From: an uncultured Lachnospiraceae bacterium
GTDB taxonomy: Bacteria; Bacillota; Clostridia; TANB77; CAG-508
Direction: 5' to 3'
DNA: 50,953 nt
Assembly: GCA_946637865.1 (NCBI GenBank)
Contig: CAMPBM010000002.1
Coordinates: forward strand, 1-50,953
Shown here: piece by piece, positions 2,154 through 31,045 of the stretch
How the letters are laid out: each line of letters opens with the position of its first letter
Position numbering within the stretch: the stretch's first letter is position 1
The notes under the pieces: generated by a model
What the model was told of the DNA's origin: nothing
What the model saw: the letters and a program-made list of their open reading frames with translations, nothing else
Databases searched by the model: none
Translations under genes and position numbers: made by a program

Positions 2154-2837
2154 ATGAAAAAAGGAAAAAGATATGTTGCAGGTGAAAAACTTGTAGATAG
2201 GTCAAAAGCCTATAGTGCAAAGGAAGCTTTAGAGTTAATTGAAAAAATGCCTAAAGCAAAATTTGATGAAACTGTAGAATTACATGTAAAATTAGGTGTT
2301 GATTCTAAACATGCAGATCAACAAGTTAGAGGTACAACAGTACTTCCTAATGGTACTGGAAAAACTTTAAGGGTGTTAGTATTTGCTAAAGGACCAAAAG
2401 CTGAGGAAGCTGTTAAAGCAGGAGCAGATTTTGTTGGTGCAGAAGAGTTAATACCAAAAATAGAAAAAGAAAATTGGTTTGATTATGATGTAATAGTTGC
2501 TACACCAGATATGATGGGTGTAGTTGGTAGATTAGGTAAGGTGTTAGGACCAAAAGGATTAATGCCTAACCCTAAATCAGGAACAGTAACAATGGATGTT
2601 ACTAAAGCAATTAATGAAATTAAATCTGGTAAAGTTGAATATAGATTAGATAAAACTAACATTATTCACTTAGGATTTGGTAAAGTTTCATTTGGTTCAG
2701 AAAAATTGCTAGAAAATTATGATGCAATTATAAATGCAATCATAAAAGCAAAACCAGCAGCAGCTAAAGGACAATACATTAAGAGTGTTGCTATTTCTAC
2801 AACAATGGGACCAAGCATGTATATTGATCAAAAATAA
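2154..2837 (+). CDS. rplA: 50S ribosomal protein L1
   Basis: The translation from [37 protein letters not shown].. is L1. AAAGGAGG lies upstream of the ATG at 2154. The track's 22-codon N-terminal extension is rejected. Confidence 0.95.
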
Positions 2838-2998
2838 TTTATAAATTTATATAGCCAAAGAAAGTAGGCATAAAGGTAAGACCTACCGAGGCAAACATTT
2901 TGTGCGGTATTGTATCCAATCTGTATGTGTGTCTCGTATACGACTATATAGATTGGATTTTATTATTGCATAAATTTCTAGGAGGTGAACTAATTAAA
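2838..2998 (+). promoter_or_regulatory. Candidate L10 (rplJ) leader with attenuator hairpin
   Basis: A structured 160-nt leader directly upstream of rplJ. It contains gtagg..cctac, the palindrome tcgtatacga, and a 9-bp stem atccaatct (2914-2922)/agattggat (2950-2958) followed by ttttatt. L10(L12)4 autoregulation through such a leader is known in Firmicutes. Confidence 0.45.
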
Positions 2999-16428: not shown

Positions 16429-18801
16429 CTAGTTATTGTTGTTACTATTTATATTATTTTTTACTACTGCATCTTCTGATTCTTTTTCAAAGATAGAATC
16501 AGTATAATCTGTTCTTATTGGATCTAATTCAAGTTCTGTATTGTCATCATCAGAGAAACTATTCAATACTGCTTTTTTCTTCTTAAATAAACCAGTAGGT
16601 TCATCGTCAGAACCATTTACAGCATTACCAGAATTGTATTTAGCAAAGTTAAACTTTTTAACATCATGTTTTTCACGATACTTAGGACTTAGGAAGTCTA
16701 ACTCTCCTGTACCATTCTCATATTTTCCATTTTCACCTGCAATTTTATAGATACATTGTTTGAATTTAATACTTTGTATCTTACCAGGTTGGAACTTAGT
16801 ATCAGGTTTGTAAGTAACATCAGATGCTTTTGGATCGTAGTCATCTTTAGAGAAGTCATAACTACGTTTCATTCTCCATTTTTTATCTTGACCAAGTTCC
16901 TTACTCCACCAATCATTATCCTCAGGAAGGTTATTTCCGAATACAACCTTATTTGCACAGTTGGCAATTATTGTATTTCTGTGAGCCTTATCATTTACAT
17001 TTAATTGATCTAAATTTTGAACTGATATGACTGTTCCTATTCTGTATTTCCTATACATAGTAAATATTGTTTCAGTTGACTTACATATAAAGTCTGCAAA
17101 TTCGTCTATATATAAGAAATGAGGAATACGTGTATTTTCATTTCCAGGTCTTCTTAAAATAGCATATTGCATTGATAATATAAAGAATAAACCAAATGCT
17201 TTATGTGCAGACGCACCTAAATCACCACGTCTTGTACATAACAATGTTATATCTCCATTTTCTAATGCTTGATCAAAATTTAAGTTATTTACTCTATTAC
17301 ATAGAATATTTCTAATTCCCGGATATCTTAATAAATTGTCTAATAATGTACTGGCTGAATATATAAATTTCTCTGCATTTTCTCTGTTTGGTGCATCTTT
17401 ATAGAAATTCTTTTTGAAATATGTCAATAAAATTGCATATTTTTTTGCTAATTCTTCATCTTTTTCAAGCTCTTTACACATATACTCTACTAGGTTGAAA
17501 TCATTTAACATACTTAACATATCTTCAAGCGTTGGTAATTCACCATCATGCATTTTGGGATACATTAATTTTAATAAAATTGATAAATTTTCAATAACTT
17601 GGTAAGAGTACGTGTTTTGAAATGCGATATCAACAGAGTAACCAGCTTTGTGTGCAAGTCCTTTTAAGACTGTAGAGATTACAACGGCTATTTGCATTGG
17701 GTCTTCGTAAGCAAATGGGTTTAAACCAGGCGAATCAGGATTTTTAGGATCTACCAAATTAACATGCATTTTATAAGCTTTTGCTATATCAATAATATGT
17801 GAAGTAGATTCATAATCTGGTGAAATATATGTTATACCCAAATTTCTATATGTAATATTATCTGATGATATATTGTATATCATTTTCTTCATATAAGATT
17901 GGTATATATGAAGCTTTGATTCTTTTGGCTTTATCATATTTAAACTAAAGTTATTATTTATATAATCATTATCATATGGACAAACCAGATTTGCAATTCC
18001 AGTTTTTAAAGAAACAAAAGCAAGCTCTTTGCTAGTTTCTCTATATTTATATTTTTTATCAATGTCTTTAGCTATCATAGGCTCGAAGATTAATGAGGTT
18101 TTACCAGCACCAGATACACCTACGACAAGCATAGATTCAAAACGTTTCTTTTCAGAAATTTTAACTGTTTTTCCAGATCTACGATTTGTACACAAGGCTA
18201 TTTCACATGTATTTGGACCTACATCTGGACTTTTTGGTGCAAGACTAATTCCTTTGTATTCATATATACCTTCTAGCATAGGCAGACTATCATTTACATT
18301 TATGTAGAGTTTCTTGAATATTTCTGGAGTCATGACTAAAGGTAAATATAGAGCTGACCAACAAAACGCAGGCTTAATCAAATAACTAAATTCAGTAGCA
18401 ATTTTTGGATAATTAGGAACGGAAAGCAAAGCCAGCCATCCAGCAGAGTTTATCCATTGCGTAAACATTGAAATTACTAAAATGTAAAGTGCTACTACAT
18501 ATGTGTATAAGAAAGATACCTTCATTTCCTGAGATTTTACAAATTTTGAGCTACACGAAAACAAAAATGCAAACACAGGACATGCCATTGCTAAAGTATA
18601 TTGTATTGGATTCCAGTAGCTTGAAGGTATTCCAGTGAATATGGTTATAAGTAAATCTACAAATCTATCTACAACTAAATATATAGTTATTAATGTTAAT
18701 ATATATGTGAAAAATGTGTTTCTATCCGTTTTTAATTTCTTTAATAATTTATCTAACAATTTCAAAATTTTCACCACTTTCATACGAAAAATCATATACA
18801 T
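16429..18801 (-). CDS. TraG/VirD4/TraD-like (type IV coupling protein-like) P-loop ATPase with multi-pass N-terminal membrane domain
   Basis: Walker A is VVGVSGAGKTS. Walker B is HFLYIDEFADF. VISVQNLDQL and NKVVFGNNL blocks resemble coupling proteins. About 5-6 hydrophobic helices occupy the first ~170 aa. The C-terminal tail is acidic and N-rich. Confidence 0.6.
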   Translation of the reverse strand: MYMIFRMKVVKILKLLDKLLKKLKTDRNTFFTYILTLITIYLVVDRFVDLLITIFTGIPSSYWNPIQYTLAMACPVFAFLFSCSSKFVKSQEMKVSFLYTYVVALYILVISMFTQWINSAGWLALLSVPNYPKIATEFSYLIKPAFCWSALYLPLVMTPEIFKKLYINVNDSLPMLEGIYEYKGISLAPKSPDVGPNTCEIALCTNRRSGKTVKISEKKRFESMLVVGVSGAGKTSLIFEPMIAKDIDKKYKYRETSKELAFVSLKTGIANLVCPYDNDYINNNFSLNMIKPKESKLHIYQSYMKKMIYNISSDNITYRNLGITYISPDYESTSHIIDIAKAYKMHVNLVDPKNPDSPGLNPFAYEDPMQIAVVISTVLKGLAHKAGYSVDIAFQNTYSYQVIENLSILLKLMYPKMHDGELPTLEDMLSMLNDFNLVEYMCKELEKDEELAKKYAILLTYFKKNFYKDAPNRENAEKFIYSASTLLDNLLRYPGIRNILCNRVNNLNFDQALENGDITLLCTRRGDLGASAHKAFGLFFILSMQYAILRRPGNENTRIPHFLYIDEFADFICKSTETIFTMYRKYRIGTVISVQNLDQLNVNDKAHRNTIIANCANKVVFGNNLPEDNDWWSKELGQDKKWRMKRSYDFSKDDYDPKASDVTYKPDTKFQPGKIQSIKFKQCIYKIAGENGKYENGTGELDFLSPKYREKHDVKKFNFAKYNSGNAVNGSDDEPTGLFKKKKAVLNSFSDDDNTELELDPIRTDYTDSIFEKESEDAVVKNNINSNNNN

Positions 18802-21321: not shown

Positions 21322-21409
21322 GCAGATGTGGCGGAACTGGCAGACGCACAGGACTTAAAATCCTGCGGTTGAATAAACCGTGCCGGTTCGATTCCGGCCA
21401 TCTGCACCA
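21322..21409 (+). tRNA. tRNA-Leu (anticodon UAA), long variable arm, CCA encoded
   Basis: The acceptor gcagatg pairs with catctgc. The anticodon stem-loop is cagga-CTTAAAA-tcctg (anticodon TAA). The variable arm is cggttgaataaaccg. The T-arm is gccggttcgattccggc. The 3' end is CCA. Confidence 0.9.
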
Positions 21410-21608: not shown

Positions 21609-21637
21609 TTGACAAGAATTCGAAAATGTTATATAAT
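21609..21637 (+). promoter_or_regulatory. Sigma-A type promoter for the XRE-family gene
   Basis: TTGACA (21609-21614), a 17-nt spacer, then TATAAT (21632-21637). Confidence 0.5.
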
Positions 21638-21658
21638 AGGATAATAGGAGATGATAAT

Positions 21659-22111
21659 ATGATTGAAAACGATGAAATTAAAAGATTTCAAGATAATTTA
21701 CTAATAATTAGGAAAGCTGTAGGATGGTCAGAGGAAGAATTAGGAAATCAGATTGGAGTTACGAGACAAACAATAAATAATCTTGAAACTCAAAAAAGTA
21801 AATTAAGTAAAACTCAATACATAGCTATGAGAGCTGTTTTAGAAAAAGAAATTATCAACTCTGATGAAAATTCAAAAGATACAAAAATGCTAGTATATTT
21901 ATTAGAAACACTTATAGATAATCCAGAAAAATACACAATTGAAGATAGGAAAAAAATAATTGAAAAGGCAAATATGTTATCGCCTACTATAATTACTAAA
22001 ACAAATTCAAGAAAAGATGTTTCTAATGATTTTGTAAAAATTATGGAAGCGTTAGGAATCGTAGTTGGTGTTGCTGCTGGGATAGTTTTTTTCAATAAAG
22101 GGAAAAAATAA
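21659..22111 (+). CDS. XRE-family HTH regulator with C-terminal transmembrane anchor
   Basis: The HTH segment is LIIRKAVGWSEEELGNQIGVTRQTINNLETQKSKLSKTQYIAMRAVL. The C-terminal hydrophobic helix is ALGIVVGVAAGIVFF. AGGAG lies upstream of the ATG at 21659. Confidence 0.7.
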   Translation: MIENDEIKRFQDNLLIIRKAVGWSEEELGNQIGVTRQTINNLETQKSKLSKTQYIAMRAVLEKEIINSDENSKDTKMLVYLLETLIDNPEKYTIEDRKKIIEKANMLSPTIITKTNSRKDVSNDFVKIMEALGIVVGVAAGIVFFNKGKK

Positions 22112-22396: not shown

Positions 22397-23899
22397 ATGA
22401 AAGAGGAAGATTTAAAAGATTTAGAAAAGAAATTATGGGAATCAGCAGATAAAATGAGAGGAGCTGTTCCTGTATCAAGTTATAAATTTATAGTTTTAGG
22501 TTTAATATTCTTGAAATATATATCAGATTCATTTGAAGAAAAATATAATGAGCTTGTTAATGAAGGATATGGTTTAGAAGAAGATAGGGATGCTTATGAG
22601 ATGGATCACATATTCTATGTACCATCAAAAGCAAGATGGAAATATATAAATGCTCATTCAAAGGATAGTAACATTGGACAAATAATTGATGAAGCATTAG
22701 AAGAAATTGAAAAAGAAAATACAACCTTAAAAGGTGTATTAATTAAGCAATACAATAGTCCAGATTATAAGAATGTAAATTTAGGGGAATTAATAGATAT
22801 ATTTACTAATATAAAAATTGGTAGCAAGGAAGCACAAGACAAAGATATTTTAGGAAGAATTTATGAGTATTTTCTTGGACAATTTGCATCAAATGAATTG
22901 CAAAAAGGTGGAGAATTCTATACACCAGCTTGTCTTGTTAGAACAATGGTTGAAATATTAGAACCATACAAAGGTAGAGTATATGATCCAGCCTGTGGAT
23001 CTGGTGGAATGTTTGTGCAAAGCCTTAAATTTATACAAAGACACCAAGGGAATATTAACAATTTAAGTATTTATGGGCAAGAGAAGAATCCAACAACTTG
23101 GAAACTTGCAAAGATGAATCTAGCCATAAGAAGTATTGATGGAAATTTAGGAAAGTTTGCTGATGATACATTTCATAATGATTTACATAAAGATTTAAAA
23201 GCAGATTTTGTATTAGCAAATCCACCATTCAACATTTCAGATTGGGGACAAGAAAAGTTACCTGATGATCCAAGATGGAAATATGGAATACCACCAAAAG
23301 GCAATGCAAACTTTGCTTGGGTTGAGCATATGATATCTAAATTATCTATGGATGGTAAAGCAGCAGTAATTTTAGCTAATGGTTCTCTATCAGCAGGTGG
23401 ACAAGAGGAAGAAATTAGAAAGAATTTGATTGAAGCAGATTTGGTAGATTGTATATTATCAATGCCATCTAATTTGTTTTATACTGTTACAATTCCTTGT
23501 AGCATTTGGATTTTAAATAGAAATAAAAAACAAAAAGGTAAAACATTATTTATAGATGCTAGAAATTTAGGAACAATGGTTACTAGAAAGTTAAGAGAAT
23601 TGGATGAAAAAGAAGATATACCTAAAATAGCAGAAACATACCATAGTTATCAAAACAATGAAGGCTATGAAGATGTAGCAGGATTTTGTAAAGTTGCTAC
23701 ATTAGAAGATATAAAGGAAAACAACTATGTTTTAACACCAGGTAGATATGTTGGAGTTGAAGAACAAGAAGATGATGGAATTCCTTTTGAAGAAAAAATG
23801 AAAACTATTACAACTGAATTAAAGGAACAATTTGAGGAGTCTCATAAGTTGGAAGAAGAAATTAGAAAGAACTTGGAGGCTATTGGGTATGGAATTTAA
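22397..23899 (+). CDS. hsdM: Type I restriction-modification system, DNA methyltransferase subunit M
   Basis: The N-terminal HsdM_N-like helix is present, along with the SAM-binding motif YDPACGSGGMF and the N6-adenine catalytic motif LANPPFN. Confidence 0.93.
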   Translation: MKEEDLKDLEKKLWESADKMRGAVPVSSYKFIVLGLIFLKYISDSFEEKYNELVNEGYGLEEDRDAYEMDHIFYVPSKARWKYINAHSKDSNIGQIIDEALEEIEKENTTLKGVLIKQYNSPDYKNVNLGELIDIFTNIKIGSKEAQDKDILGRIYEYFLGQFASNELQKGGEFYTPACLVRTMVEILEPYKGRVYDPACGSGGMFVQSLKFIQRHQGNINNLSIYGQEKNPTTWKLAKMNLAIRSIDGNLGKFADDTFHNDLHKDLKADFVLANPPFNISDWGQEKLPDDPRWKYGIPPKGNANFAWVEHMISKLSMDGKAAVILANGSLSAGGQEEEIRKNLIEADLVDCILSMPSNLFYTVTIPCSIWILNRNKKQKGKTLFIDARNLGTMVTRKLRELDEKEDIPKIAETYHSYQNNEGYEDVAGFCKVATLEDIKENNYVLTPGRYVGVEEQEDDGIPFEEKMKTITTELKEQFEESHKLEEEIRKNLEAIGYGI

Positions 23900-25115
23900 G
23901 AAAATAAAACTAAAAGATATATCTGTTAGAATAACTAAAGGAACAACTCCAGAAAAGGAAGCCTTTAAGGGAAAAGATGTTATATATATAAAATCTGATA
24001 GTTTAAACTATCATGGCTTTATGGATGAAACAGCATTTGTTACAATAGACCAAAAAACACATGAAAGTAAGTTAAAGAGATCAATATTAAGGGAAAATGA
24101 TATATTATATTCAATTGCTGGTGCATATTTGGGAAAGATAGGTCTGGTAAAAAAAGAATATTTACCTGCTAACACAAATCAGGCTGTTGGTATAATATCT
24201 ATAGATTATAATTTAGCATTGCCTAAATATGTGTATTATTATTTACAACAGTTAAAAGTTAGATATTATGCTAATAATTCAATTGCACAATCAGCTCAGC
24301 CTAATATTAATCTTGAACAATTGGGGCAATTTGATATAGCACTATGTGAAATGGAAGAACAAAACAAAATAGTAAATATATTAGATTCTATTAATAAAAA
24401 AATAGAGTTAAATAATCAGATAAATGATAATTTGTTAGAAATGTCACAATTGATCTTTAGTAATTACATTAACGAAAATAAAAGTATAAATTATTGTAAA
24501 ATCAAAGATTTAAATCCTAAGCTAGAAACAGGAAAGAGGCCCAATGGTGGAGTGGGGAATATTTTAAATGGAATTCCTAGTATAGGTGCAGAGAGTATAA
24601 AAAAAGTAGGATATTTTGATTATTCTAAAACCAAATATGTTACTGAAGAATATTTTGAAAAAATGAAAAAAGGTATTGTTAAAGGATATGAAATACTTAT
24701 TTATAAAGATGGTGGAAAGCCAGGATATTTTATGCCCAATTTTTCAATGTTTGGAGAGGGATTCCCTTATGAAAGATGTGCTATAAATGAGCATGTATTT
24801 TTATTAGATTTTAATAATATTAGGTTTAATATATTCTATTATTATTATTTTAATTCTGAAGAGATAAGACACAAATTACATGTTTTAGGTAGCAAGTCAG
24901 CTGCTATACCTGGAATAAATCAACAAGATATTTTAAATTTAGAAATACCATGTGTTAAAGAAAAAGATGCTTATGAGCTATTTGACATATTAGAATTTAA
25001 CACGAAAATGATTATAAAGAATAGTAAACAAAATCATAAGCTATGTCAACTAAGAGATACATTATTACCAAAGTTAATGAATGGAGAAATTAATTTATCA
25101 AATGTAAATATATAG
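23889..25115 (+). CDS. hsdS: Type I R-M specificity subunit S (two target-recognition domains)
   Basis: It overlaps the hsdM stop by 11 nt. The structure is duplicated TRD plus conserved coiled-coil spacers (EEQNKIVNILDSINKKIELNNQINDNL and QNHKLCQLRDTLLPKLMNGEI). Confidence 0.88.
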   Translation: MEFKKIKLKDISVRITKGTTPEKEAFKGKDVIYIKSDSLNYHGFMDETAFVTIDQKTHESKLKRSILRENDILYSIAGAYLGKIGLVKKEYLPANTNQAVGIISIDYNLALPKYVYYYLQQLKVRYYANNSIAQSAQPNINLEQLGQFDIALCEMEEQNKIVNILDSINKKIELNNQINDNLLEMSQLIFSNYINENKSINYCKIKDLNPKLETGKRPNGGVGNILNGIPSIGAESIKKVGYFDYSKTKYVTEEYFEKMKKGIVKGYEILIYKDGGKPGYFMPNFSMFGEGFPYERCAINEHVFLLDFNNIRFNIFYYYYFNSEEIRHKLHVLGSKSAAIPGINQQDILNLEIPCVKEKDAYELFDILEFNTKMIIKNSKQNHKLCQLRDTLLPKLMNGEINLSNVNI

Positions 25116-25133: not shown

Positions 25134-26477
25134 ATGTTCGGAAAAATTGAAATAAATAAAATAAAGAATGTCAGCAGTAGAAAGAATTTTGAATATGTAT
25201 TGCAGTCGTATTATTCAGGAAACTATAAAGCAAGCATTTTGTTGTTATATAATATTGTAGTAAATGATTTATACGAAAAACTTCAATTAATGAATGAAAA
25301 AAATTATATTAATTGTAAAAAGGAATTAGAAGAAATAGAAAATATATTGAAGGATGGGGACGCAAAAAAATACTCATCTGTAGAGGAGAAGATATTTGAT
25401 GTATATAAAGATAAAAAAGTATTAAATCAACCAACAATTGATTTGTTATATTTTTTTAAGGAGGTTAGAAACAAGTGTGCACATCCATTTTTCTTCAAAG
25501 AGAGTGAATATTCTCCAATAGAAGAGGAAGTATATTTATTTATTGTTAGAATATATAATGAGATTTTGATTATAGATGCATTTCTTAAAGATCCATATAG
25601 TGTGATGAAGGATGATATAGAAAATTTTAAATTCCCAGATATAAGAGCAAATTTAGTTGGTGCTAGTTCTCTAAGAAAAGATACAGATAAAGTTAAAAAG
25701 TATTTTGAAGTAAAGTATTTTAGGTTTATGACGAATAGTAACTTTAAAAAGTTATTTAAGACGTTACTAGATTTAACGATTTCCAAAAAGACTGATGAAA
25801 TTCAAAAAGAACAATATAAAAATTTTTTAATACTAAATTCTATGTTAGAATATTTGAAAGTGCAAGGAAAGGAAAATATTTTAAATAATACATATAATTG
25901 GTCAAAATTAAAATCAGACATCTTGTATGATGATGATAACGATATTTTTTCTGATGAGTGGTTTGCGTTATCATATCTTTATAAAGTATTAATGTATAAT
26001 TCAAATTTTGTTGAAGAATTAAAAAGTACAAATGAAATTGTGTACAATAAGGTTGAAGTATCTCTATATCAGAAGGGGAATCTATTTATTGAGTTTTGGC
26101 AACTATTTGATTATGATATAAATGTTGCTATAGGTAAATTGAAAGATGATATAAGCAGTTTGGAGTATTCAAGAATTATAGATAAATTGCAAATGCAATT
26201 GGAAAAGGGCAGTTTACTTCAATTATTAAAAAGAATGGTAGAAAAAATTCCAGCATTTGATGGATATGATATAGCGAATAATTGCCTAACATCATTTATT
26301 AAAGTACTAAGTGTAAAGCGTGATACAATTCAACAAGAAGATTTAGAAGATATATTTAGTCTTTTTAATGAAAACAGACAAATTTACGATAAAACAAGAA
26401 GTAATAGAGATAATCAAATGTTGGAAATTGCAAAATTAGGATATGATTTATCTGAATATCCTAATTTAATCAGATAA
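25134..26477 (+). CDS. Uncharacterised 447-aa protein: N-terminal HEPN-like domain (RNKCAH) plus ~300-aa unknown helical C-terminal region
   Basis: Its GAGG RBS starts 18 nt after the hsdS stop. A single Rx4H motif RNKCAH lies at aa 112-117 (nt 25467-25484) in a predicted four-helix context (FEYVLQSYYSGNYKASILLLYNIVVNDLYEKL..TIDLLYFFKEVRNKCAHP..EEVYLFIVRIYNEIL). No P-loop is visible. Confidence 0.55.
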   Translation: MFGKIEINKIKNVSSRKNFEYVLQSYYSGNYKASILLLYNIVVNDLYEKLQLMNEKNYINCKKELEEIENILKDGDAKKYSSVEEKIFDVYKDKKVLNQPTIDLLYFFKEVRNKCAHPFFFKESEYSPIEEEVYLFIVRIYNEILIIDAFLKDPYSVMKDDIENFKFPDIRANLVGASSLRKDTDKVKKYFEVKYFRFMTNSNFKKLFKTLLDLTISKKTDEIQKEQYKNFLILNSMLEYLKVQGKENILNNTYNWSKLKSDILYDDDNDIFSDEWFALSYLYKVLMYNSNFVEELKSTNEIVYNKVEVSLYQKGNLFIEFWQLFDYDINVAIGKLKDDISSLEYSRIIDKLQMQLEKGSLLQLLKRMVEKIPAFDGYDIANNCLTSFIKVLSVKRDTIQQEDLEDIFSLFNENRQIYDKTRSNRDNQMLEIAKLGYDLSEYPNLIR

Positions 26478-26497
26478 ATTGTGATTTGGAGGAAAGA

Positions 26498-27223
26498 ATG
26501 ATGGATATATATGATTATTATTTATTACCAACAACAGAAGAACTGAAGAAAGAAAGCAATGTGGATAAACTTTTTATAAAATATAAATTAAATGTACCTA
26601 ATATAGCTAGATATATGTTCATTAAACCACAATCTAATATTGAATATAACAAATCAGTAAAACCATATTTTAGAGATATAACAATCAACTATGGATTAGA
26701 CAATTGGAAAAATAAAGTATTAGAATTAAAAGAAATATATTGTTGTGTTCAGAATTATGTTCAAAAAAGTAAAAATGCAATTGAGGAAGAAAAAAGTTTT
26801 TATGAATACTGGTGTAAAACTTTTATTGATAGATTCTTTATTAATATTTCATCATTATATGATAAATCAGCACATATTCTAAACTATTTATATGAATTAA
26901 ATGTAAAAAAATCTATAAAATTTAATCATGATGTAATGACAAAATTGAAAGATAAAAATGAAACTGCATATAATATTTATTTTGCAATTTATAAAAAATA
27001 TAAAAAAGAATCTGATGAAATAAGAAATAATGCTACTCACAATTTTAGTGAATTATTTCCTAATATATATTATATGGAAAATGCAGATGGAACATTCACT
27101 TGGAAAAGAGGAAAAGAGCTTTCAATAGATGAAGGATTGAAAAAAATAGAAAATTTAATAAATATTTTAGAAGAATATAAAAAACAAATAGAAGAAACTT
27201 TAGAAGAAAAATATAAAAAATAG
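26498..27223 (+). CDS. Uncharacterised 241-aa protein with HEPN-type RNNATH motif
   Basis: GGAGG lies upstream of the ATG at 26498. The gene ends 10 nt before hsdR. A single Rx4H motif, IRNNATHNF, is at nt 27023-27040. The sequence looks helical throughout, and the C-terminus is a K/E-rich helix. Confidence 0.5.
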   Translation: MMDIYDYYLLPTTEELKKESNVDKLFIKYKLNVPNIARYMFIKPQSNIEYNKSVKPYFRDITINYGLDNWKNKVLELKEIYCCVQNYVQKSKNAIEEEKSFYEYWCKTFIDRFFINISSLYDKSAHILNYLYELNVKKSIKFNHDVMTKLKDKNETAYNIYFAIYKKYKKESDEIRNNATHNFSELFPNIYYMENADGTFTWKRGKELSIDEGLKKIENLINILEEYKKQIEETLEEKYKK

Positions 27224-27233
27224 GAGAAAAGTT

Positions 27234-30200
27234 ATGTTTGATGAAGAAACTTTGGAAAAAGTAACAATGGAAATGTTACAAAATTTAGAATATGAATGTA
27301 TAAATGGATATGAAATTGTAAGAACAGACTTCTCAAAGGTATTATTAGAAGGAGATTTTATTCAAGCAGTACAAAGACTAAATAGAGGAATTAAAGAAGA
27401 GCAAGTAAAAGAAACTGTAAGATTAATTAGAAACTTAGATCATAATAATACAATATTGAACAACAAGCAGTTTACAGAGTATTTATTAAATGGAGTTCAA
27501 GTACCAGTTCAAGAACAAGGTGAAACAAAATACAGAACAGTTAAACTTGTTGATTTTGATAATGTAGATAATAATATATTTAAAGCAATAAACCAATATA
27601 CAATCATTGAACATAGTGAAAAAAGACCAGATATAATCATATTTGTAAATGGAATGCCATTAGTAGTAATTGAACTTAAATCAACAGTTAGAGAAGAAGT
27701 AAAATTAATAGATGGATATAATCAATTAAGAGGATATCAAGAAGTTCATATACCATCATTGTTCTACTATAATCAATTTATGATAGTGAGTGATGGAGCT
27801 CAAGCAAGAGCAGGAACAATTACAAGTCCTTGGACAAGATTTTCAGAATGGAAAAAAGTTGAAGACACAGATGAAGTTACAGATAATATGGCAACACATC
27901 AAACACTATTTAATGGAATGCTTAGAAAAGATAGATTATTAGATATTATTAGCAATTTTATTCTTTGGAGTGAAGATAACAAAATCTTGTCAGCATATCA
28001 TCAATATTTTGGTGTTAAGAAAGCAATTATAAGTACAGAAAATGCAATAGAAAATAGAACAGGAAAAGCTGGAATTGTGTGGCATACACAAGGAAGTGGT
28101 AAAAGTTTTTCAATGGTATTTTATGCTTGTAATATGATTAAAATACTGCATAATCCAAGTATAGTGGTAGTAACAGATAGAAATGATTTAGATAATCAAT
28201 TATTTACAACATTCTCAAAGTGTTCAGAATATCTAAAACAAAATCCTATCCAAATAGAAAGCAGGAAAGATTTAAATGAACAACTTGATGGAAGAAAATC
28301 AGGTGGAGTATTTTTTACAACATTGCAAAAATTTGAAGAAGATACAGGATTGTTTAGTAGTAGAGATGATATATTAGTATTAGTAGATGAAGCACATAGA
28401 AGCCACTATGGAATTGATGCAACTATAAGATTTGATACTAACAAGATGAAAGCATATAAAAAGTATGGTACAGCAAAATATTTACATGAGGCATTTCCTA
28501 ATGCAACATTTATAGGCTTTACAGGTACACCAGTTGAAACAAAAGATAAGTCAACAACAAATGTATTTGGAAATATAATTGATGTATATGATATGACACA
28601 AGCAATTGTTGATGGTTCAACTGTACCAATTATGTATGAATCAAGAATGGCAAGAGTTGGATTAAATCAACAGATATTAGATGAAATAGATGATTACTAT
28701 AATATGCTAGAAACTGAAGAAGGTGTTGAAGATTACAAAATAGCAGAATCAAAGAAAAATATGGCAACTATGAAGCAGATTATTGAAGATCCAGATAGAT
28801 TGGAAATGATTGTTAGAGATGTTATAAAACATTATGAAGAAATTGAAACAAGTGTGGCTAATAAAGCAATGGTTGTAGCATATTCAAGACAATCTGCTTA
28901 TACAATGTATAACAAATTCTTAGAACTAAGACCAGGCTGGAAAAATAAAGTTAATATGATAATAACATCAAGTAATAAAGATGATGAAGAAATGCAAAAA
29001 GCTATTGGTACAAAGAAAGATAAGAAGCAACTAGAAAAAGATTTTAAAGATATGAATTCTGAATTCAAAATAGCTATTGTGGTGGATATGTGGTTAACAG
29101 GATTTGATGTACCAGGTTTGGGAACAATGTATATAGACAAACCTATGAAAGCACATAATTTAATGCAGGCAATTGCAAGAGTAAATAGAGTTTATAAAGA
29201 TAAAACTGGTGGACTAATAATAGATTATATTGGTTTAAAAAGATGGTTATTGGATGCTTTAAAAACATATACAAAAAGAGACCAAAACAAGATAATTGAG
29301 AATAGTGAGTTGGTTAAGGTATTAAATGATAAAGTTGAATTGATTAGAGATTTATTTCAGGGATTTTATTATGAACATTTTGCTACTACAACAGATAGTG
29401 ATAAATATGAAATCATTTTAGCAGGTGCAAACTGGATGCTAAAAACAGAAGAAATTAGAAAAGCATTTATGAGATATAGCTATGACATTAAGAGTTTATA
29501 TGCACTCACAACAGGTGTTTTGTCACAAGAATTAAAAGATGAAATATTATTCTTTATATCAGTTAGGTCATTCATTTCAAAACTAAGTGGTGATAAAATT
29601 GATGTTAAAGAAATTAATGATAATGTGGCTAAAATGTTGGAAAGAGCAATTCAAGATGATGAAATTCTGCAAATAGGTGAAGTACATAACAGTAATCAAG
29701 TTGCAATATTAAGTAATGAAATATTAGATAAACTATCAAAAATGCAGAAAAAGAATATAGCAGTTGAAATATTGAATAGAGCATTAAAGGAATATGTTGA
29801 GCAAATTGGAAAGCAAAATGTAGTTATGATGGAAAAATTCTCAACTAAATTCCAAAAAATTGCAGCAAGATATAATGAAAGAACTAGTGTTGAAGATATA
29901 GAGAAAATCATACAAGAAATGATTAACTTAAAAATTGAAATTGAACAAGGCTTAAAAGCAGGAAATCAATATAATTTGTCAGATGAGGAAAAAGCATTTT
30001 TTGATGCATTAGGAGATGATCCTGAAGTTAAGGAACTAATGAAAGATGAAACTCTTGTGTTGATTGCTAAGGAGCTTGTAGAAACAGTTAATAACAATAT
30101 GACAATTGATTGGGATATAAGAAAAGATGCAAGAGCAAGAATGAGAATTGAAATTAAGAAACTATTAATTAAGTATGATTATCCACCTAATAAGAGTGAG

Positions 30201-30260
30201 AAAGCAGTTCAAACAGTAATTAGACAAGCTGAATTAAAATGCAAAAACATGATTCAATAA
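27234..30260 (+). CDS. hsdR: Type I restriction enzyme, R subunit (helicase-nuclease)
   Basis: The N-terminal PD-(D/E)xK-like motif is PDIIIFVNGMPLVVIELK. Helicase motif I is HTQGSGKSF, motif II is VLVDEAHRSH, and later motifs include QAIARVNR. The product is 1008 aa. Confidence 0.93.
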   Translation: MFDEETLEKVTMEMLQNLEYECINGYEIVRTDFSKVLLEGDFIQAVQRLNRGIKEEQVKETVRLIRNLDHNNTILNNKQFTEYLLNGVQVPVQEQGETKYRTVKLVDFDNVDNNIFKAINQYTIIEHSEKRPDIIIFVNGMPLVVIELKSTVREEVKLIDGYNQLRGYQEVHIPSLFYYNQFMIVSDGAQARAGTITSPWTRFSEWKKVEDTDEVTDNMATHQTLFNGMLRKDRLLDIISNFILWSEDNKILSAYHQYFGVKKAIISTENAIENRTGKAGIVWHTQGSGKSFSMVFYACNMIKILHNPSIVVVTDRNDLDNQLFTTFSKCSEYLKQNPIQIESRKDLNEQLDGRKSGGVFFTTLQKFEEDTGLFSSRDDILVLVDEAHRSHYGIDATIRFDTNKMKAYKKYGTAKYLHEAFPNATFIGFTGTPVETKDKSTTNVFGNIIDVYDMTQAIVDGSTVPIMYESRMARVGLNQQILDEIDDYYNMLETEEGVEDYKIAESKKNMATMKQIIEDPDRLEMIVRDVIKHYEEIETSVANKAMVVAYSRQSAYTMYNKFLELRPGWKNKVNMIITSSNKDDEEMQKAIGTKKDKKQLEKDFKDMNSEFKIAIVVDMWLTGFDVPGLGTMYIDKPMKAHNLMQAIARVNRVYKDKTGGLIIDYIGLKRWLLDALKTYTKRDQNKIIENSELVKVLNDKVELIRDLFQGFYYEHFATTTDSDKYEIILAGANWMLKTEEIRKAFMRYSYDIKSLYALTTGVLSQELKDEILFFISVRSFISKLSGDKIDVKEINDNVAKMLERAIQDDEILQIGEVHNSNQVAILSNEILDKLSKMQKKNIAVEILNRALKEYVEQIGKQNVVMMEKFSTKFQKIAARYNERTSVEDIEKIIQEMINLKIEIEQGLKAGNQYNLSDEEKAFFDALGDDPEVKELMKDETLVLIAKELVETVNNNMTIDWDIRKDARARMRIEIKKLLIKYDYPPNKSEKAVQTVIRQAELKCKNMIQ

Positions 30261-30498: not shown

Positions 30499-30657
30499 AC
30501 TTAAAATCCTGCGGTTGAATAAACCGTGCCGGTTCGATTCCAGCCATCTGCGCCAAGTAATATCAAGGGTTTTGGAAGATTCCTCTTGGTATTATTTTTT
30601 TGCTTAAATTAAAAGTTCTAATGTAATTTGTTAGAAATCTGTTAGAACTTTTTGTGA
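30499..30657. repeat. Island direct repeat, copy 2: decayed 3' half of tRNA-Leu plus downstream block; attR-like
   Basis: acttaaaatcctgcggttgaataaaccgtgccggttcgattccAgccatctgcGcca differs from the live tRNA at 2 positions. One substitution breaks the T-stem and the other changes the discriminator base. No 5' half is present. Confidence 0.8.
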
Positions 30658-30658
30658 T

Positions 30659-31045
30659 TTAAGCAATTTGTTTCTGTGTGAATATGCTGTTAATAGTATT
30701 AGCTGATTTTTCCTTTGAATATTTATCTAAATGGCAGTATCTGTTAGCAGTAGTATTGTAGCTTGAATGACCTAACCATTCTTGAATTTCTTTCATACTG
30801 ACACCATTGGCAAGTAGAATTGATGCACAACTATGTCTACATGAGTGCAAAGTAATTCTTTTTAAACCAATACTCTCTATAAATTTTGGAACTTGATCTG
30901 TTATGGTATCAGGTTTTACTAATTCTCCATCATCCTTGACACAGATGTAATTTCCTTTATTTTTATATGTATTTCCAAAGAATAGTTTGCTAAGGGTTTG
31001 GGACAAAGTTCCATAGAAATAGAATGTGAAATAGACGAATTGTGG
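30659..31045 (-). pseudogene. Truncated tyrosine recombinase/integrase (C-terminal catalytic fragment only)
   Basis: ITLHSCRHSCASILL (HxxR box) and LGHSSYNTTANRYCH (catalytic Tyr region) are present. The N-terminal SAM-like domain and the first catalytic Arg box are absent. The frame is closed by a stop at 31046-31048. The only start is a spurious TTG. Confidence 0.75.

What the first reader, a model, noticed from the sequence alone, without database searches (positions are those of the whole stretch)
25134..27223. Two tandem HEPN-motif genes nested between hsdS and hsdR of a Type I R-M operon: candidate R-M-coupled RNase/abortive-infection module
**Seen in sequence.** The order is hsdM-hsdS-X-Y-hsdR on one strand, with intergenic gaps of only 18, 20 and 10 nt and an RBS before each gene, so X and Y are almost certainly co-transcribed with the restriction enzyme.
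- X (447 aa) has a single RNKCAH motif (aa 112-117, nt 25467-25484) at the start of a helix in an N-terminal ~150-aa four-helix-like region. About 300 aa of unrecognisable helical sequence follows.
- Y (241 aa) has a single RNNATH motif (nt 27023-27040).
- Neither protein has a P-loop, so they are not PrrC or RloC.

**Established knowledge.** Rx4-6H, often RNxxxH, is the catalytic signature of HEPN RNases. These enzymes form composite active sites by dimerisation. The anticodon nuclease PrrC sits in exactly this position, between hsdS and hsdR, in the E. coli prr locus, where the R-M complex keeps it silent until a phage anti-restriction factor attacks that complex.

**Inference.** X and Y could form a heteromeric HEPN RNase that backs up the Type I enzyme, with the X C-terminal region acting as sensor or tether. 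I do not recognise this two-gene arrangement as a named system.
Basis: partly seen in the sequence, partly recalled or inferred. Interest (0 to 1): 0.85.

Follow-up and report, generated by a model that had tools for sequence, protein, structure and literature searches.

The report
Two stacked HEPN RNases in hsd operon
A Type I restriction-modification operon on a small tRNA-Leu island carries two unrelated, separately mobile HEPN "suicide RNase" defence genes side by side: one belongs to the characterised PD-T7-3/DARNA family and the other to the Pfam Cthe_2314 HEPN family, so this is defence-gene stacking and not a new two-protein enzyme.

Summary
The order is hsdM-hsdS-X-Y-hsdR on one strand, with gaps of 18, 20 and 10 nt. 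There is one RNKCAH motif in X and one RNNATH motif in Y, at the stated coordinates, and neither protein has a P-loop.

- **X is a named family.** It matches the PADLOC PD-T7-3 model over its full length (E 2e-25; 26/26 homologues match). It also matches the solved dodecameric "Dandelion" structure 9wxf. PD-T7-3, now called DARNA, is a validated single-gene abortive-infection tRNA anticodon nuclease activated by ssDNA presented by phage SSB.
- **Y is a known Pfam family.** It belongs to PF18730, HEPN_Cthe2314 (43 bits against a cut-off of 27). R176 is invariant and H181 nearly invariant.
- **X and Y are not a conserved pair.** None of 12 other X loci has Y, and none of 5 other Y loci has X.
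- **Each gene uses the hsd position alone.** X sits alone between hsdS and hsdR in six other operons. A Y homologue sits alone in that position in one.
- **Y is a clean indel.** Against the closest operon (hsdR 85% identical), Y is a 761-bp insertion.

The slot between hsdS and hsdR therefore behaves as an exchangeable cargo site. PrrC-like coupling to the restriction enzyme is untested and unnecessary for X's family. I rate this a new member of a known kind, of modest interest.

The parts
21322..21409 (+). tRNA-Leu(UAA) gene. Its 3' 57 nt (21353-21409) form the left att-like repeat of the island.
   Evidence: ARAGORN, Rfam tRNA 59 bits, and direct repeat D2.
21626..22111 (+). HTH_3 (Xre-type) protein of 161 aa with a hydrophobic C-terminus. 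It is the first gene of the island and a possible regulator.
   Evidence: Pfam PF01381, E 5.4e-7.
22397..23899 (+). hsdM, the Type I methyltransferase subunit.
   Evidence: Pfam N6_Mtase (E 1e-114) plus HsdM_N. PADLOC MTase_I, E 4e-206.
23889..25115 (+). hsdS, the specificity subunit with two target-recognition domains. The ORF is open from a TTG at 23832. Profile alignments begin at the ATG at 23889.
   Evidence: Pfam Methylase_S with 2 stretches. PADLOC Specificity_I covers residues 20-423 of the ORF against positions 2-398 of a 403-position model.
25134..26477 (+). X, a PD-T7-3/DARNA-family protein. It has an N-terminal HEPN RNase domain (about aa 1-150) and a C-terminal all-helical domain of about 300 aa.
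   Evidence: PADLOC PD-T7-3, E 2e-25, covering 7-445 against 10-428 of 432. All 26 homologues match the same model. PDB 9wxf/9wx2 'Dandelion' and 'Dandelion-hepn' match at E 2.8e-9 and 1.6e-7. The AF2 model has pLDDT 90 and is all-alpha.
25467..25484 (+). Catalytic HEPN motif RNKCAH of X (R112...H117).
   Evidence: R112, C115, A116, H117 and P118 are invariant in 26 homologues. The motif aligns with RHLSAH of Dandelion, which corresponds to R117/H122 of DARNA. H117 is the only His in X.
26471..27231 (+). Y cassette. This 761-bp segment is absent from the closest related operon, L019, where a 45-nt spacer takes its place.
   Evidence: blastn homology to L019 stops at 26470 and resumes at 27232. 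This segment has the lowest GC of the operon; the Y coding sequence is 20.5%.
26498..27223 (+). Y, a Cthe_2314-family HEPN protein of 241 aa.
   Evidence: Pfam PF18730, E 5.9e-11, 43.1 bits against a cut-off of 27.1. 22 of 28 relatives match the same family. The AF2 model has pLDDT 92.9 and is a long helical bundle with a beta-hairpin.
27023..27040 (+). HEPN motif RNNATH of Y (R176...H181, followed by N182).
   Evidence: Across 28 sequences that are mostly 20-40% identical to Y (one is 42%), R176 is invariant and H181 and N182 are at least 90% conserved.
27234..30260 (+). hsdR, the Type I restriction/translocase subunit. It is full length.
   Evidence: Pfam HSDR_N, SWI2_SNF2, T1R_D3-like and T1RH-like_C. 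PADLOC REase_I, E 4.9e-285.
30499..30555 (+). Right att-like direct repeat. It is a 96% copy of the tRNA-Leu 3' 57 nt. The next ~110 nt also resemble the sequence downstream of the tRNA.
   Evidence: the repeat finder families D2, D3 and D6.
30659..31006 (-). Truncated tyrosine integrase (C-terminal 115 aa only), lying just beyond the right repeat.
   Evidence: Pfam Phage_integrase, E 2.2e-14, profile positions 90-170 of 172.

Best explanation
The block from tRNA-Leu to the second att-like repeat is an integrative defence islet of about 9.1 kb. It carries an intact Type I R-M operon.

The position between hsdS and hsdR holds two independent, separately acquired abortive-infection HEPN RNase genes.

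**X**
- X is a DARNA/PD-T7-3-family enzyme.
- By homology (inferred), it assembles through HEPN homodimers into a higher-order homo-oligomer. Its composite R112/H117 sites would stay closed until a phage-replication cue opens them. In E. coli DARNA the cue is ssDNA presented by the phage SSB to the C-terminal helical domain.
- It would then cut tRNA anticodon loops and stop translation.

**Y**
- Y is a stand-alone Cthe_2314-family HEPN RNase. Its trigger and substrate are unknown.
- Its conserved RNxxxHN site predicts metal-independent RNA cleavage by a homodimer.

**How the pieces relate**
- The link to the restriction enzyme is shared transcription and shared horizontal transfer. DNA restriction would be the first line of defence and two RNA-level suicide modules the second. 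No obligate protein complex is needed.
- X and Y do not need each other.

**Shown versus inferred**
- Shown here: gene order, family memberships, conservation of the catalytic residues, non-co-occurrence of X and Y, the Y indel, and the interleaved phylogeny.
- Inferred: enzymatic activity, oligomeric state, triggers and co-transcription.
For: **Family membership of X**
- X matches the PD-T7-3 model over its full length.
- X matches the solved 12-chain Dandelion structure and its isolated HEPN domain.
- Dandelion numbering is DARNA numbering plus 5 (R122/H127/W411 against the published R117/H122/W406), so they appear to be the same protein.
- PD-T7-3 was cloned and shown to be active as a single gene (Vassallo 2022 Table S2).
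- The DARNA mechanism comes from bioRxiv 10.64898/2026.02.22.705581.
- R112 and H117 are invariant in 26 homologues.

**Family membership of Y**
- Y scores above the Pfam gathering threshold for HEPN_Cthe2314.
- R176 is invariant, and H181, N182, D122 and N129 are at least 90% conserved.

**Independence of X and Y**
- The X loci L001, L002, L004, L005, L006/7 and L019/20 read hsdS-X-hsdR with no Y.
- The X loci L003, L008-10, L011, L012/13, L021 and L022 have X outside any hsd operon, also without Y.
- L014 reads hsdS-Yhomologue-hsdR with no X. L015 to L018 have Y homologues without X.

**Evidence for cassette exchange**
- Y is a precise 761-bp indel relative to L019, whose hsdR is 85% identical.
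- hsdR and X identities are discordant: for L005, hsdR is 80% identical but X only 41%.
- hsd-embedded and stand-alone X genes interleave on the tree.
- X (24.7% GC) and Y (20.5%) are lower in GC than hsdM (30.1%) and hsdR (28.3%).
Against: - No activity, oligomeric state or trigger has been measured for this X or for any Cthe_2314 protein.
- The DARNA ssDNA-contact residue W406 aligns with Asp419 in X. This part of the alignment is weak, so the activating ligand may differ.
- About half of the sampled X loci, and half of the Y loci with readable neighbours, lie immediately upstream of hsdR. That frequency could reflect functional coupling to the R-M complex and not only hitch-hiking.
- Sampling is small: 13 X loci and 6 Y loci with usable context (a seventh Y contig, L023, shows no neighbours), mostly metagenomic contigs.
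- Structure searches gave no significant HEPN hit for either whole-protein model.
Confidence: 0.7

Rival explanations
1. PrrC-like guard model. X and/or Y bind the HsdM2S(R2) complex and are held latent by it. They are released as RNases when a phage anti-restriction protein (Ocr, ArdA or Stp-like) disables the Type I enzyme.
For: - The operon position is the same as prrC, between hsdS and hsdR (reviews PMC3874165 and PMC12707154).
- The position recurs in seven X loci including this window, and in L014 for Y.
- The gaps are only 10-20 nt or overlap, which implies translational and transcriptional linkage.
- Anantharaman 2013 proposed this logic for at least 16 HEPN clades linked to R-M systems.
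Against: - E. coli PD-T7-3 protects when cloned alone. Its activation by ssDNA with phage SSB was reconstituted in vitro without any Hsd protein.
- Six of 13 X loci and three of six Y loci have no adjacent hsd gene.
- X identity is decoupled from hsdR identity, which argues against co-evolving interfaces.
- X and Y lack the ABC-ATPase domain through which PrrC is regulated.
Confidence: 0.15
2. X and Y form a heteromeric HEPN RNase with a composite active site, one R/H contributed by each protein. The X C-terminal domain acts as sensor or tether.
For: - The genes are adjacent and 20 nt apart, and each has a single Rx4H motif.
- HEPN active sites are generally formed across a dimer interface (Anantharaman 2013).
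Against: - No other locus pairs the two families: 0 of 12 X loci and 0 of 5 Y loci.
- Y is an indel relative to the nearest operon.
- The two profiles share no detectable similarity.
- DARNA active sites are homodimeric within a homododecamer.
Confidence: 0.05
3. Y is not an independent effector. Instead it is a modulator of X or of HsdR (antitoxin-like or adaptor), or it is a decaying passenger gene.
For: - Y and two of its homologues lie directly upstream of hsdR.
- Its N-terminal ~90 aa are swapped in the closest relative, P0039, as would be expected for an adaptor region.
- No partner antitoxin is visible for a potentially toxic RNase.
Against: - The catalytic R, H and N residues are conserved across sequences mostly 20-40% identical to Y, so there is selection on an active site.
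- The ORF is intact, the model is confident (pLDDT 92.9), and the gene has its own RBS.
- Homologues occur without X and without hsdR.
Confidence: 0.07

Closest known systems
DARNA / PD-T7-3 (E. coli ECOR30 RCP48690.1; the PDB 'Dandelion' entries 9wxf and 9wx2 appear to be the same protein)
   Same: - The length is similar (447 against 456 aa).
- The N-terminal HEPN domain has Rx4H at the same position (R112/H117 against R117/H122).
- The alignment to the PD-T7-3 HMM is collinear over the full length.
- The C-terminal half is all-helical, and an N-x-Q-x-Y-x-x-x-R segment is conserved near the C-terminus.
- It occurs as a single gene in many loci.
   Different: - Identity to the E. coli protein is only about 25-30% over the aligned N-terminal region.
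- The ssDNA-contact residue W406 aligns with Asp, and the RNA-contact residue R98 aligns with Asp next to a Lys patch. These parts of the alignment are weak.
- This clostridial clade is frequently embedded between hsdS and hsdR. That context is not mentioned for DARNA in the papers read here.
Pfam PF18730 HEPN_Cthe2314 (Anantharaman et al. 2013)
   Same: - Y scores above the gathering threshold over positions 5-171 of the 174-position model.
- The RNxxxH(N) motif is conserved.
- It is a stand-alone protein of about 230-250 aa found in Firmicutes-type genomes.
   Different: - The 2013 survey listed 'None detected' for genomic context.
- Here, 3 of 6 loci with readable neighbours place it immediately upstream of a Type I hsdR.
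- No member has been characterised experimentally.
PrrC in the EcoprrI locus (prrA-prrB-prrC-prrD), and RloC
   Same: - It is a HEPN RNase gene embedded between hsdS and hsdR of a Type I operon.
- X's family is a tRNA anticodon nuclease acting by abortive infection.
   Different: - X and Y have no ABC-ATPase or P-loop domain.
- In X the HEPN domain is N-terminal, not C-terminal.
- The DARNA trigger is ssDNA with phage SSB, not loss of the R-M complex.
- There is no evidence that the Hsd proteins mask X or Y.
Other R-M-linked HEPN clades (Abi2/AbiD/AbiF, ApeA, EC042_2821 and others; Anantharaman 2013)
   Same: The general logic matches: a HEPN RNase acts as an RNA-level second line of defence, encoded inside an R-M operon.
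   Different: - The HEPN families differ.
- Here two unrelated HEPN genes are stacked in one slot.

Membership tests
DARNA / PD-T7-3 | Full-length sequence match to the family profile | tested here: met
   PADLOC PDLC04108, E 2e-25, residues 7-445 against model positions 10-428 of 432. All 26 homologues match. A PDB profile search hit 9wxf at E 1.1e-10, with both the N- and C-terminal ends aligned.
DARNA / PD-T7-3 | N-terminal HEPN domain with a catalytic Rx4H motif | tested here: met
   RNKCAH at residues 112-117 aligns with RHLSAH of the solved HEPN domain 9wx2. R112 and H117 are invariant in 26 homologues.
DARNA / PD-T7-3 | C-terminal helical (Pds5-like) domain of about 300 aa that binds ssDNA through aromatic residues (F368, W406) | tested here: inconclusive
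   The AF2 model is all-helical from residue 150 to 447 with pLDDT around 90. Foldseek returned only non-significant helical-repeat hits. W406 aligns with D419 in a weak alignment segment, and F368 could not be aligned.
DARNA / PD-T7-3 | Autonomous single-gene system | tested here: met
   Six of 13 loci have the gene with no hsd neighbour and no conserved partner. The prototype was cloned alone.
DARNA / PD-T7-3 | Homododecamer, tRNA anticodon-loop cleavage, and activation by ssDNA with phage SSB | not testable with these tools
   This needs biochemistry or a multimer prediction. It is known only for the E. coli protein.
HEPN_Cthe2314 (PF18730) | Pfam score above the gathering threshold | tested here: met
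   43.1 bits against 27.1, E 5.9e-11, model positions 5-171 of 174. 22 of 28 relatives also match.
HEPN_Cthe2314 (PF18730) | Conserved Rx4-6H catalytic motif | tested here: met
   R176 is invariant, and H181 and N182 are at least 90% conserved in 28 divergent sequences.
HEPN_Cthe2314 (PF18730) | HEPN four-helix fold | tested here: inconclusive
   The AF2 model (pLDDT 92.9) is a bundle of long helices. All Foldseek PDB hits have E > 0.1, although HepT-type HEPN toxins recur among them (7bxo, 7ae6, 8yuf, 6m6u, 8xeh) with target-normalised TM-scores of 0.45-0.55.
PrrC / RloC anticodon nucleases | N-terminal ABC-ATPase (P-loop) domain fused to a C-terminal HEPN domain | tested here: not met
   There is no Walker A motif in X or Y and no ATPase family in Pfam or NCBIfam. 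The HEPN domain of X is N-terminal.
PrrC / RloC anticodon nucleases | Gene embedded between hsdS and hsdR | tested here: met
PrrC / RloC anticodon nucleases | Latency imposed by the Type I R-M complex and release by an anti-restriction factor | not testable with these tools
   This requires genetics or biochemistry.
HEPN-MNT (HepT/MntA) toxin-antitoxin | Adjacent minimal nucleotidyltransferase antitoxin | tested here: not met
   No nucleotidyltransferase-family protein is present in the operon.

The most novel reading that the evidence does not exclude
In this clostridial Type I R-M lineage, the hsdS-hsdR junction is a dedicated exchange site for HEPN effector cassettes. DARNA-like genes, Cthe_2314-like genes, or both can occupy it. 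The embedded copies would be functionally wired to the restriction complex, as PrrC is, so that inhibition of the Type I enzyme, and not only ssDNA with phage SSB, unleashes them. That would make this a second and a third R-M 'guard' family beside PrrC, and the first functional context for Cthe_2314 HEPN proteins.
Probability: 0.12. Interest if true: 0.6.

Novelty: new member of a known kind. Interest (0 to 1): 0.3.

Why it matters
- It turns an apparently unnamed two-gene system into two identifiable modules. One of them (PD-T7-3/DARNA) already has a solved structure and a mechanism, so there are immediate, specific predictions to test in a Firmicute homologue.
- DARNA-family genes are repeatedly embedded between hsdS and hsdR. 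I did not see this context described in the papers I read.
- It gives the uncharacterised Cthe_2314 HEPN family its first recurring genomic association, immediately upstream of hsdR.
- It illustrates cassette-like turnover of second-line RNase effectors inside Type I R-M operons.
- None of this overturns current ideas. It extends the established picture of R-M systems paired with HEPN RNases.

Tried and rejected
- **Foldseek on X.** The whole X model against PDB gave only non-significant helical-repeat hits (best E 0.08). The structure library evidently lacks 9wxf and 9tra, so fold evidence for X rests on sequence homology to the solved protein.
- **Foldseek on Y.** Against PDB and BFVD nothing was significant. 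The weak HepT hits are only suggestive.
- **Profile-profile comparison.** X family against Y family by hhalign gave 7% probability. I rejected the idea that they are paralogues or a duplicated pair.
- **Word-index search with Y.** It found only Y itself. The exhaustive HMMER search was needed to find 30 relatives.
- **Metagenome and viral scans for Y.** These yielded one 1.3-kb contig and nothing, respectively.
- **Viral scan for X.** It gave only one distant hit to the N-terminal domain.
- **Plasmid tblastn.** There were only marginal hits. One, in Desulfosporosinus, is annotated as a Cthe_2314 family HEPN protein.
- **Literature search for 'Dandelion'.** It found no relevant paper.
- **Promoter scan.** Promoter-like sites were no more frequent than in shuffles (71 against 78), so I draw no conclusion about internal promoters.
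- **Native context of E. coli PD-T7-3.** I could not establish it.
Full report

Yes. The ORF list gives hsdM at 22397-23899 and hsdS open from 23832, with profile matches starting at the ATG at 23889 and ending at 25115. X is at 25134-26477 (447 aa). Y is at 26498-27223 (241 aa from the ATG; a TTG at 26486 would give 245 aa). hsdR is at 27234-30260. All are on the + strand.

The junction sequences show gaps of 18, 20 and 10 nt. Each gap has a purine-rich Shine-Dalgarno-like element. It finds no Walker A motif. RNxxxH occurs in only 0.2% of residue shuffles of X and 0.6% of shuffles of Y. H117 is the only histidine in all 447 residues of X.

Pfam and PADLOC confirm complete hsdM, hsdS (two target-recognition domains) and hsdR. 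No terminator-like site lies on the + strand inside the operon. This fits co-transcription but does not prove it.

**2. What X is**

Pfam and NCBIfam find nothing for X. The PADLOC library matches X over its whole length to PD-T7-3 (E 2e-25; residues 7-445 against model positions 10-428 of 432). All 26 aligned homologues match the same model.

PD-T7-3 was found in a functional selection in E. coli. It was cloned as a single CDS (RCP48690.1 from ECOR30) and annotated 'HEPN' (PMC9519451 text and Table S2).

A 2026 preprint renames it DARNA (bioRxiv 10.64898/2026.02.22.705581). The preprint reports:
- an N-terminal HEPN domain (aa 1-159, R117x4H122);
- a C-terminal Pds5-like helical domain (aa 160-456);
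- a homododecamer built from HEPN homodimers;
- cleavage of tRNA anticodon loops;

X also hits two PDB entries by sequence. One is 9wxf 'Dandelion' (460 aa, 12 chains; E 2.8e-9). The other is 9wx2 'Dandelion-hepn' (E 1.6e-7). RNKCAH of X lies over RHLSAH of Dandelion. Dandelion numbering is DARNA numbering plus 5 (R122/H127/W411 against R117/H122/W406), so the two appear to be the same protein. A profile of the X family aligns to both the N-terminal 220 residues and the C-terminal 60 residues of 9wxf.

In 26 X homologues (42-67% identical), R112, C115, A116, H117 and P118 are invariant. The AF2 model is confident (pLDDT 90) and entirely helical. Foldseek against PDB was uninformative, and the structure library apparently lacks 9wxf.

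Two DARNA functional residues do not map onto identical residues in X. W406 (ssDNA contact) aligns with D419, and R98 (RNA contact) aligns with D93 beside K92, K94 and K95. These segments align weakly, so the activating ligand of this clade remains open.

**3. What Y is**

Y matches Pfam PF18730, HEPN_Cthe2314 (43.1 bits against a gathering score of 27.1; E 5.9e-11). The word-indexed protein search found only Y itself. The exhaustive HMMER search of 1.84 billion cluster representatives found 30 relatives with E <= 1e-3. Of the 28 sequences I aligned, 22 match PF18730.

In that alignment, most sequences are 20-40% identical to Y and the closest is 42%. R176 is invariant, and H181, N182, D122 and N129 are at least 90% conserved. 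The AF2 model (pLDDT 92.9) is a bundle of long helices with a beta-hairpin after the motif helix. Foldseek gives no significant PDB hit, although HepT-type HEPN toxins recur among the weak hits. BFVD was uninformative.

The 2013 HEPN survey lists this family with a conserved Rx4-6H motif and with context 'None detected' (PMC3710099). The X and Y profiles show no detectable relationship to each other (hhalign probability 7%).

**4. Are X and Y a pair?**

No. I examined 12 further distinct X loci.

| Context of X | Loci |
|---|---|
| hsdM-hsdS-X-hsdR, with X followed by hsdR within about 20-40 nt or overlapping it | L001, L002, L004, L005, L006/L007, L019/L020 |
| Next to a GmrSD_N-HNH nuclease | L003 |
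| Next to a Type IIG R-M gene and serine recombinases | L008-L010 |
| Polysaccharide-synthesis loci | L011, L022 |
| ParB-containing element | L012/L013 |
| Surface-protein region | L021 |

tblastn with Y finds nothing in any of these loci.

Y's relatives likewise lack X.

| Locus | Arrangement |
|---|---|
| L014 (P0039, the closest relative; 58% identical over the C-terminal 145 aa) | hsdS C-terminus, Y homologue, then hsdR N-terminus: the same slot, with Y alone |
| L015 | unknown 783-aa gene, Y homologue, hsdR (EcoEI type), hsdM |
| L016 | resolvase-bearing element |
| L017 | MazG-like, Y homologue, AAA_13 ATPase |
| L018 | small unannotated genes |

The operon closest to the window is L019 (hsdR 85.5% identical, hsdM 84% at the DNA level). 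It has X (63% identical) but no Y. DNA homology stops at window position 26470 and resumes at 27232. Y is therefore a clean 761-bp indel that replaces a 45-nt spacer. A short leader, AAATTGTGATTTG, precedes Y both here and in L014.

X and hsdR histories are discordant. In L005, hsdR is 80% identical to the window's but X only 41%. On a neighbour-joining tree of X proteins, hsd-embedded and stand-alone genes interleave. X (24.7% GC) and Y (20.5%) are lower in GC than hsdM (30.1%) and hsdR (28.3%).

**5. Wider setting**

The operon lies directly downstream of tRNA-Leu(UAA) at 21322-21409. The last 57 nt of the tRNA recur at 30499-30555 (96% identical). About 110 further nucleotides are also similar at both ends. 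A truncated tyrosine integrase follows at 30659-31006 on the minus strand.

The HTH-hsdM-hsdS-X-Y-hsdR block is therefore an integrative islet of about 9.1 kb bounded by att-like repeats. It sits in otherwise chromosomal surroundings that include HU, a polysaccharide flippase-like gene, UDG, ParA-like, FtsW/RodA and Dus genes.

**6. Mechanism proposed**

The best-supported reading (confidence about 0.7) is defence stacking. An intact Type I enzyme restricts unmodified DNA. Two independent HEPN RNases, co-expressed from the same operon, provide abortive-infection back-up.

By homology, X should oligomerise through HEPN homodimers and sense a replication-associated nucleic-acid cue through its C-terminal helical domain. 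It would then cut tRNA anticodon loops. Y should be a homodimeric, metal-independent RNase with an unknown trigger.

The steps shown here are family membership, catalytic-residue conservation, independence of the two genes, and cassette-like turnover. Activity, oligomeric state, triggers and co-transcription are inferred.

Three rival readings remain:
- **PrrC-like guarding by the Hsd complex (about 0.15).** The recurrent slot supports it. Against it, PD-T7-3 is autonomous, many loci have no hsd gene, and X and hsdR histories are discordant.
- **An X:Y heteromer (about 0.05).** Non-co-occurrence and the homomeric DARNA architecture contradict it.
- **Y as a modulator or decaying passenger (about 0.07).** Its conserved active site argues against this.

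**7. Comparison with known systems, and novelty**

HEPN RNase genes embedded in R-M operons are an established theme. PrrC in EcoprrI is the classic case (PMC3874165 and PMC12707154). Anantharaman et al. counted at least 16 HEPN clades linked to R-M systems.

X passes the testable membership criteria for DARNA/PD-T7-3. Y passes those for PF18730. Neither is a PrrC/RloC member, because they have no ABC-ATPase domain, and no MNT antitoxin is present.

The following points appear not to be described in the literature I could read:
- a clostridial DARNA clade is often embedded between hsdS and hsdR;
- Cthe_2314 HEPN genes also lie directly upstream of hsdR, in 3 of 6 loci with readable neighbours;
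- both can be stacked in the same slot.

I rate this 'new member of a known kind'. Interest is 0.3. It is a useful annotation and a tidy example of cassette exchange, but it would not surprise a specialist.

Noticed in passing
window 21322-21409 and 30499-30662: The 3' 57 nt of tRNA-Leu(UAA) are duplicated 9146 bp downstream at 96% identity. About 110 further nucleotides are also similar at both ends. Together they bracket the HTH-hsd-X-Y block like attL and attR of an integrative islet. The sequence after the second repeat runs into the 3' end of a truncated integrase gene, which suggests tandem or decayed islands at this tRNA.
   Followed up: partly
window 30659-31006 (-): A 115-aa ORF matches only the C-terminal catalytic part of tyrosine integrases (Pfam positions 90-170 of 172). 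It is probably a pseudogene remnant.
   Followed up: no
window 25134-26477: X contains a single histidine in 447 residues, the catalytic H117. This is extreme depletion of His outside the active site.
   Followed up: no
window 26478-26497 and L014 148-198: A short leader, AAATTGTGATTTG, precedes the Y gene in the window (after X) and in L014 (after hsdS). It may mark the 5' boundary of the mobile Y cassette.
   Followed up: partly
window 16429-18801 (-): A 790-aa TraG/VirD4-type coupling protein lies on the opposite strand. It coincides with a local collapse of GC skew at 16-19 kb. It may be a remnant of a conjugative element upstream of the island.
   Followed up: no
window 2837-2973 (+): There is an Rfam L10_leader match at 44.1 bits, just at the gathering score. 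This indicates a ribosomal-protein (rplJ/rplL) region at the start of the window.
   Followed up: no
L017 268-3058: A Y homologue is flanked by a MazG-like pyrophosphatase gene and by a gene of more than 500 aa matching the Pfam AAA_13 ATPase family. From my own knowledge, not tested here, AAA_13 is the family that covers the PrrC/RloC-type ATPase domain. This is another defence-like context for the Cthe_2314 family.
   Followed up: partly
L006 12383-15971 and L019 9239-10371: In related operons, hsdR is followed by a conserved unannotated 285-aa gene and a DUF7695 gene. In L006 a GmrSD gene is also present. These genes are absent from the window, where the att-like repeat follows hsdR.
   Followed up: no
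L024 6001-6375 (IMG/VR contig of 70.8 kb): A viral contig encodes a distant relative (26% identity) of the HEPN N-terminal domain of X only (residues 9-131).
   Followed up: no
proteins P0015 and P0036 (X homologues): The precomputed annotation lists Pfam PF27235.1 for two X homologues. When X itself was scanned against the local Pfam copy, that accession did not come up. A newer Pfam release may already define a family for this protein.
   Followed up: no
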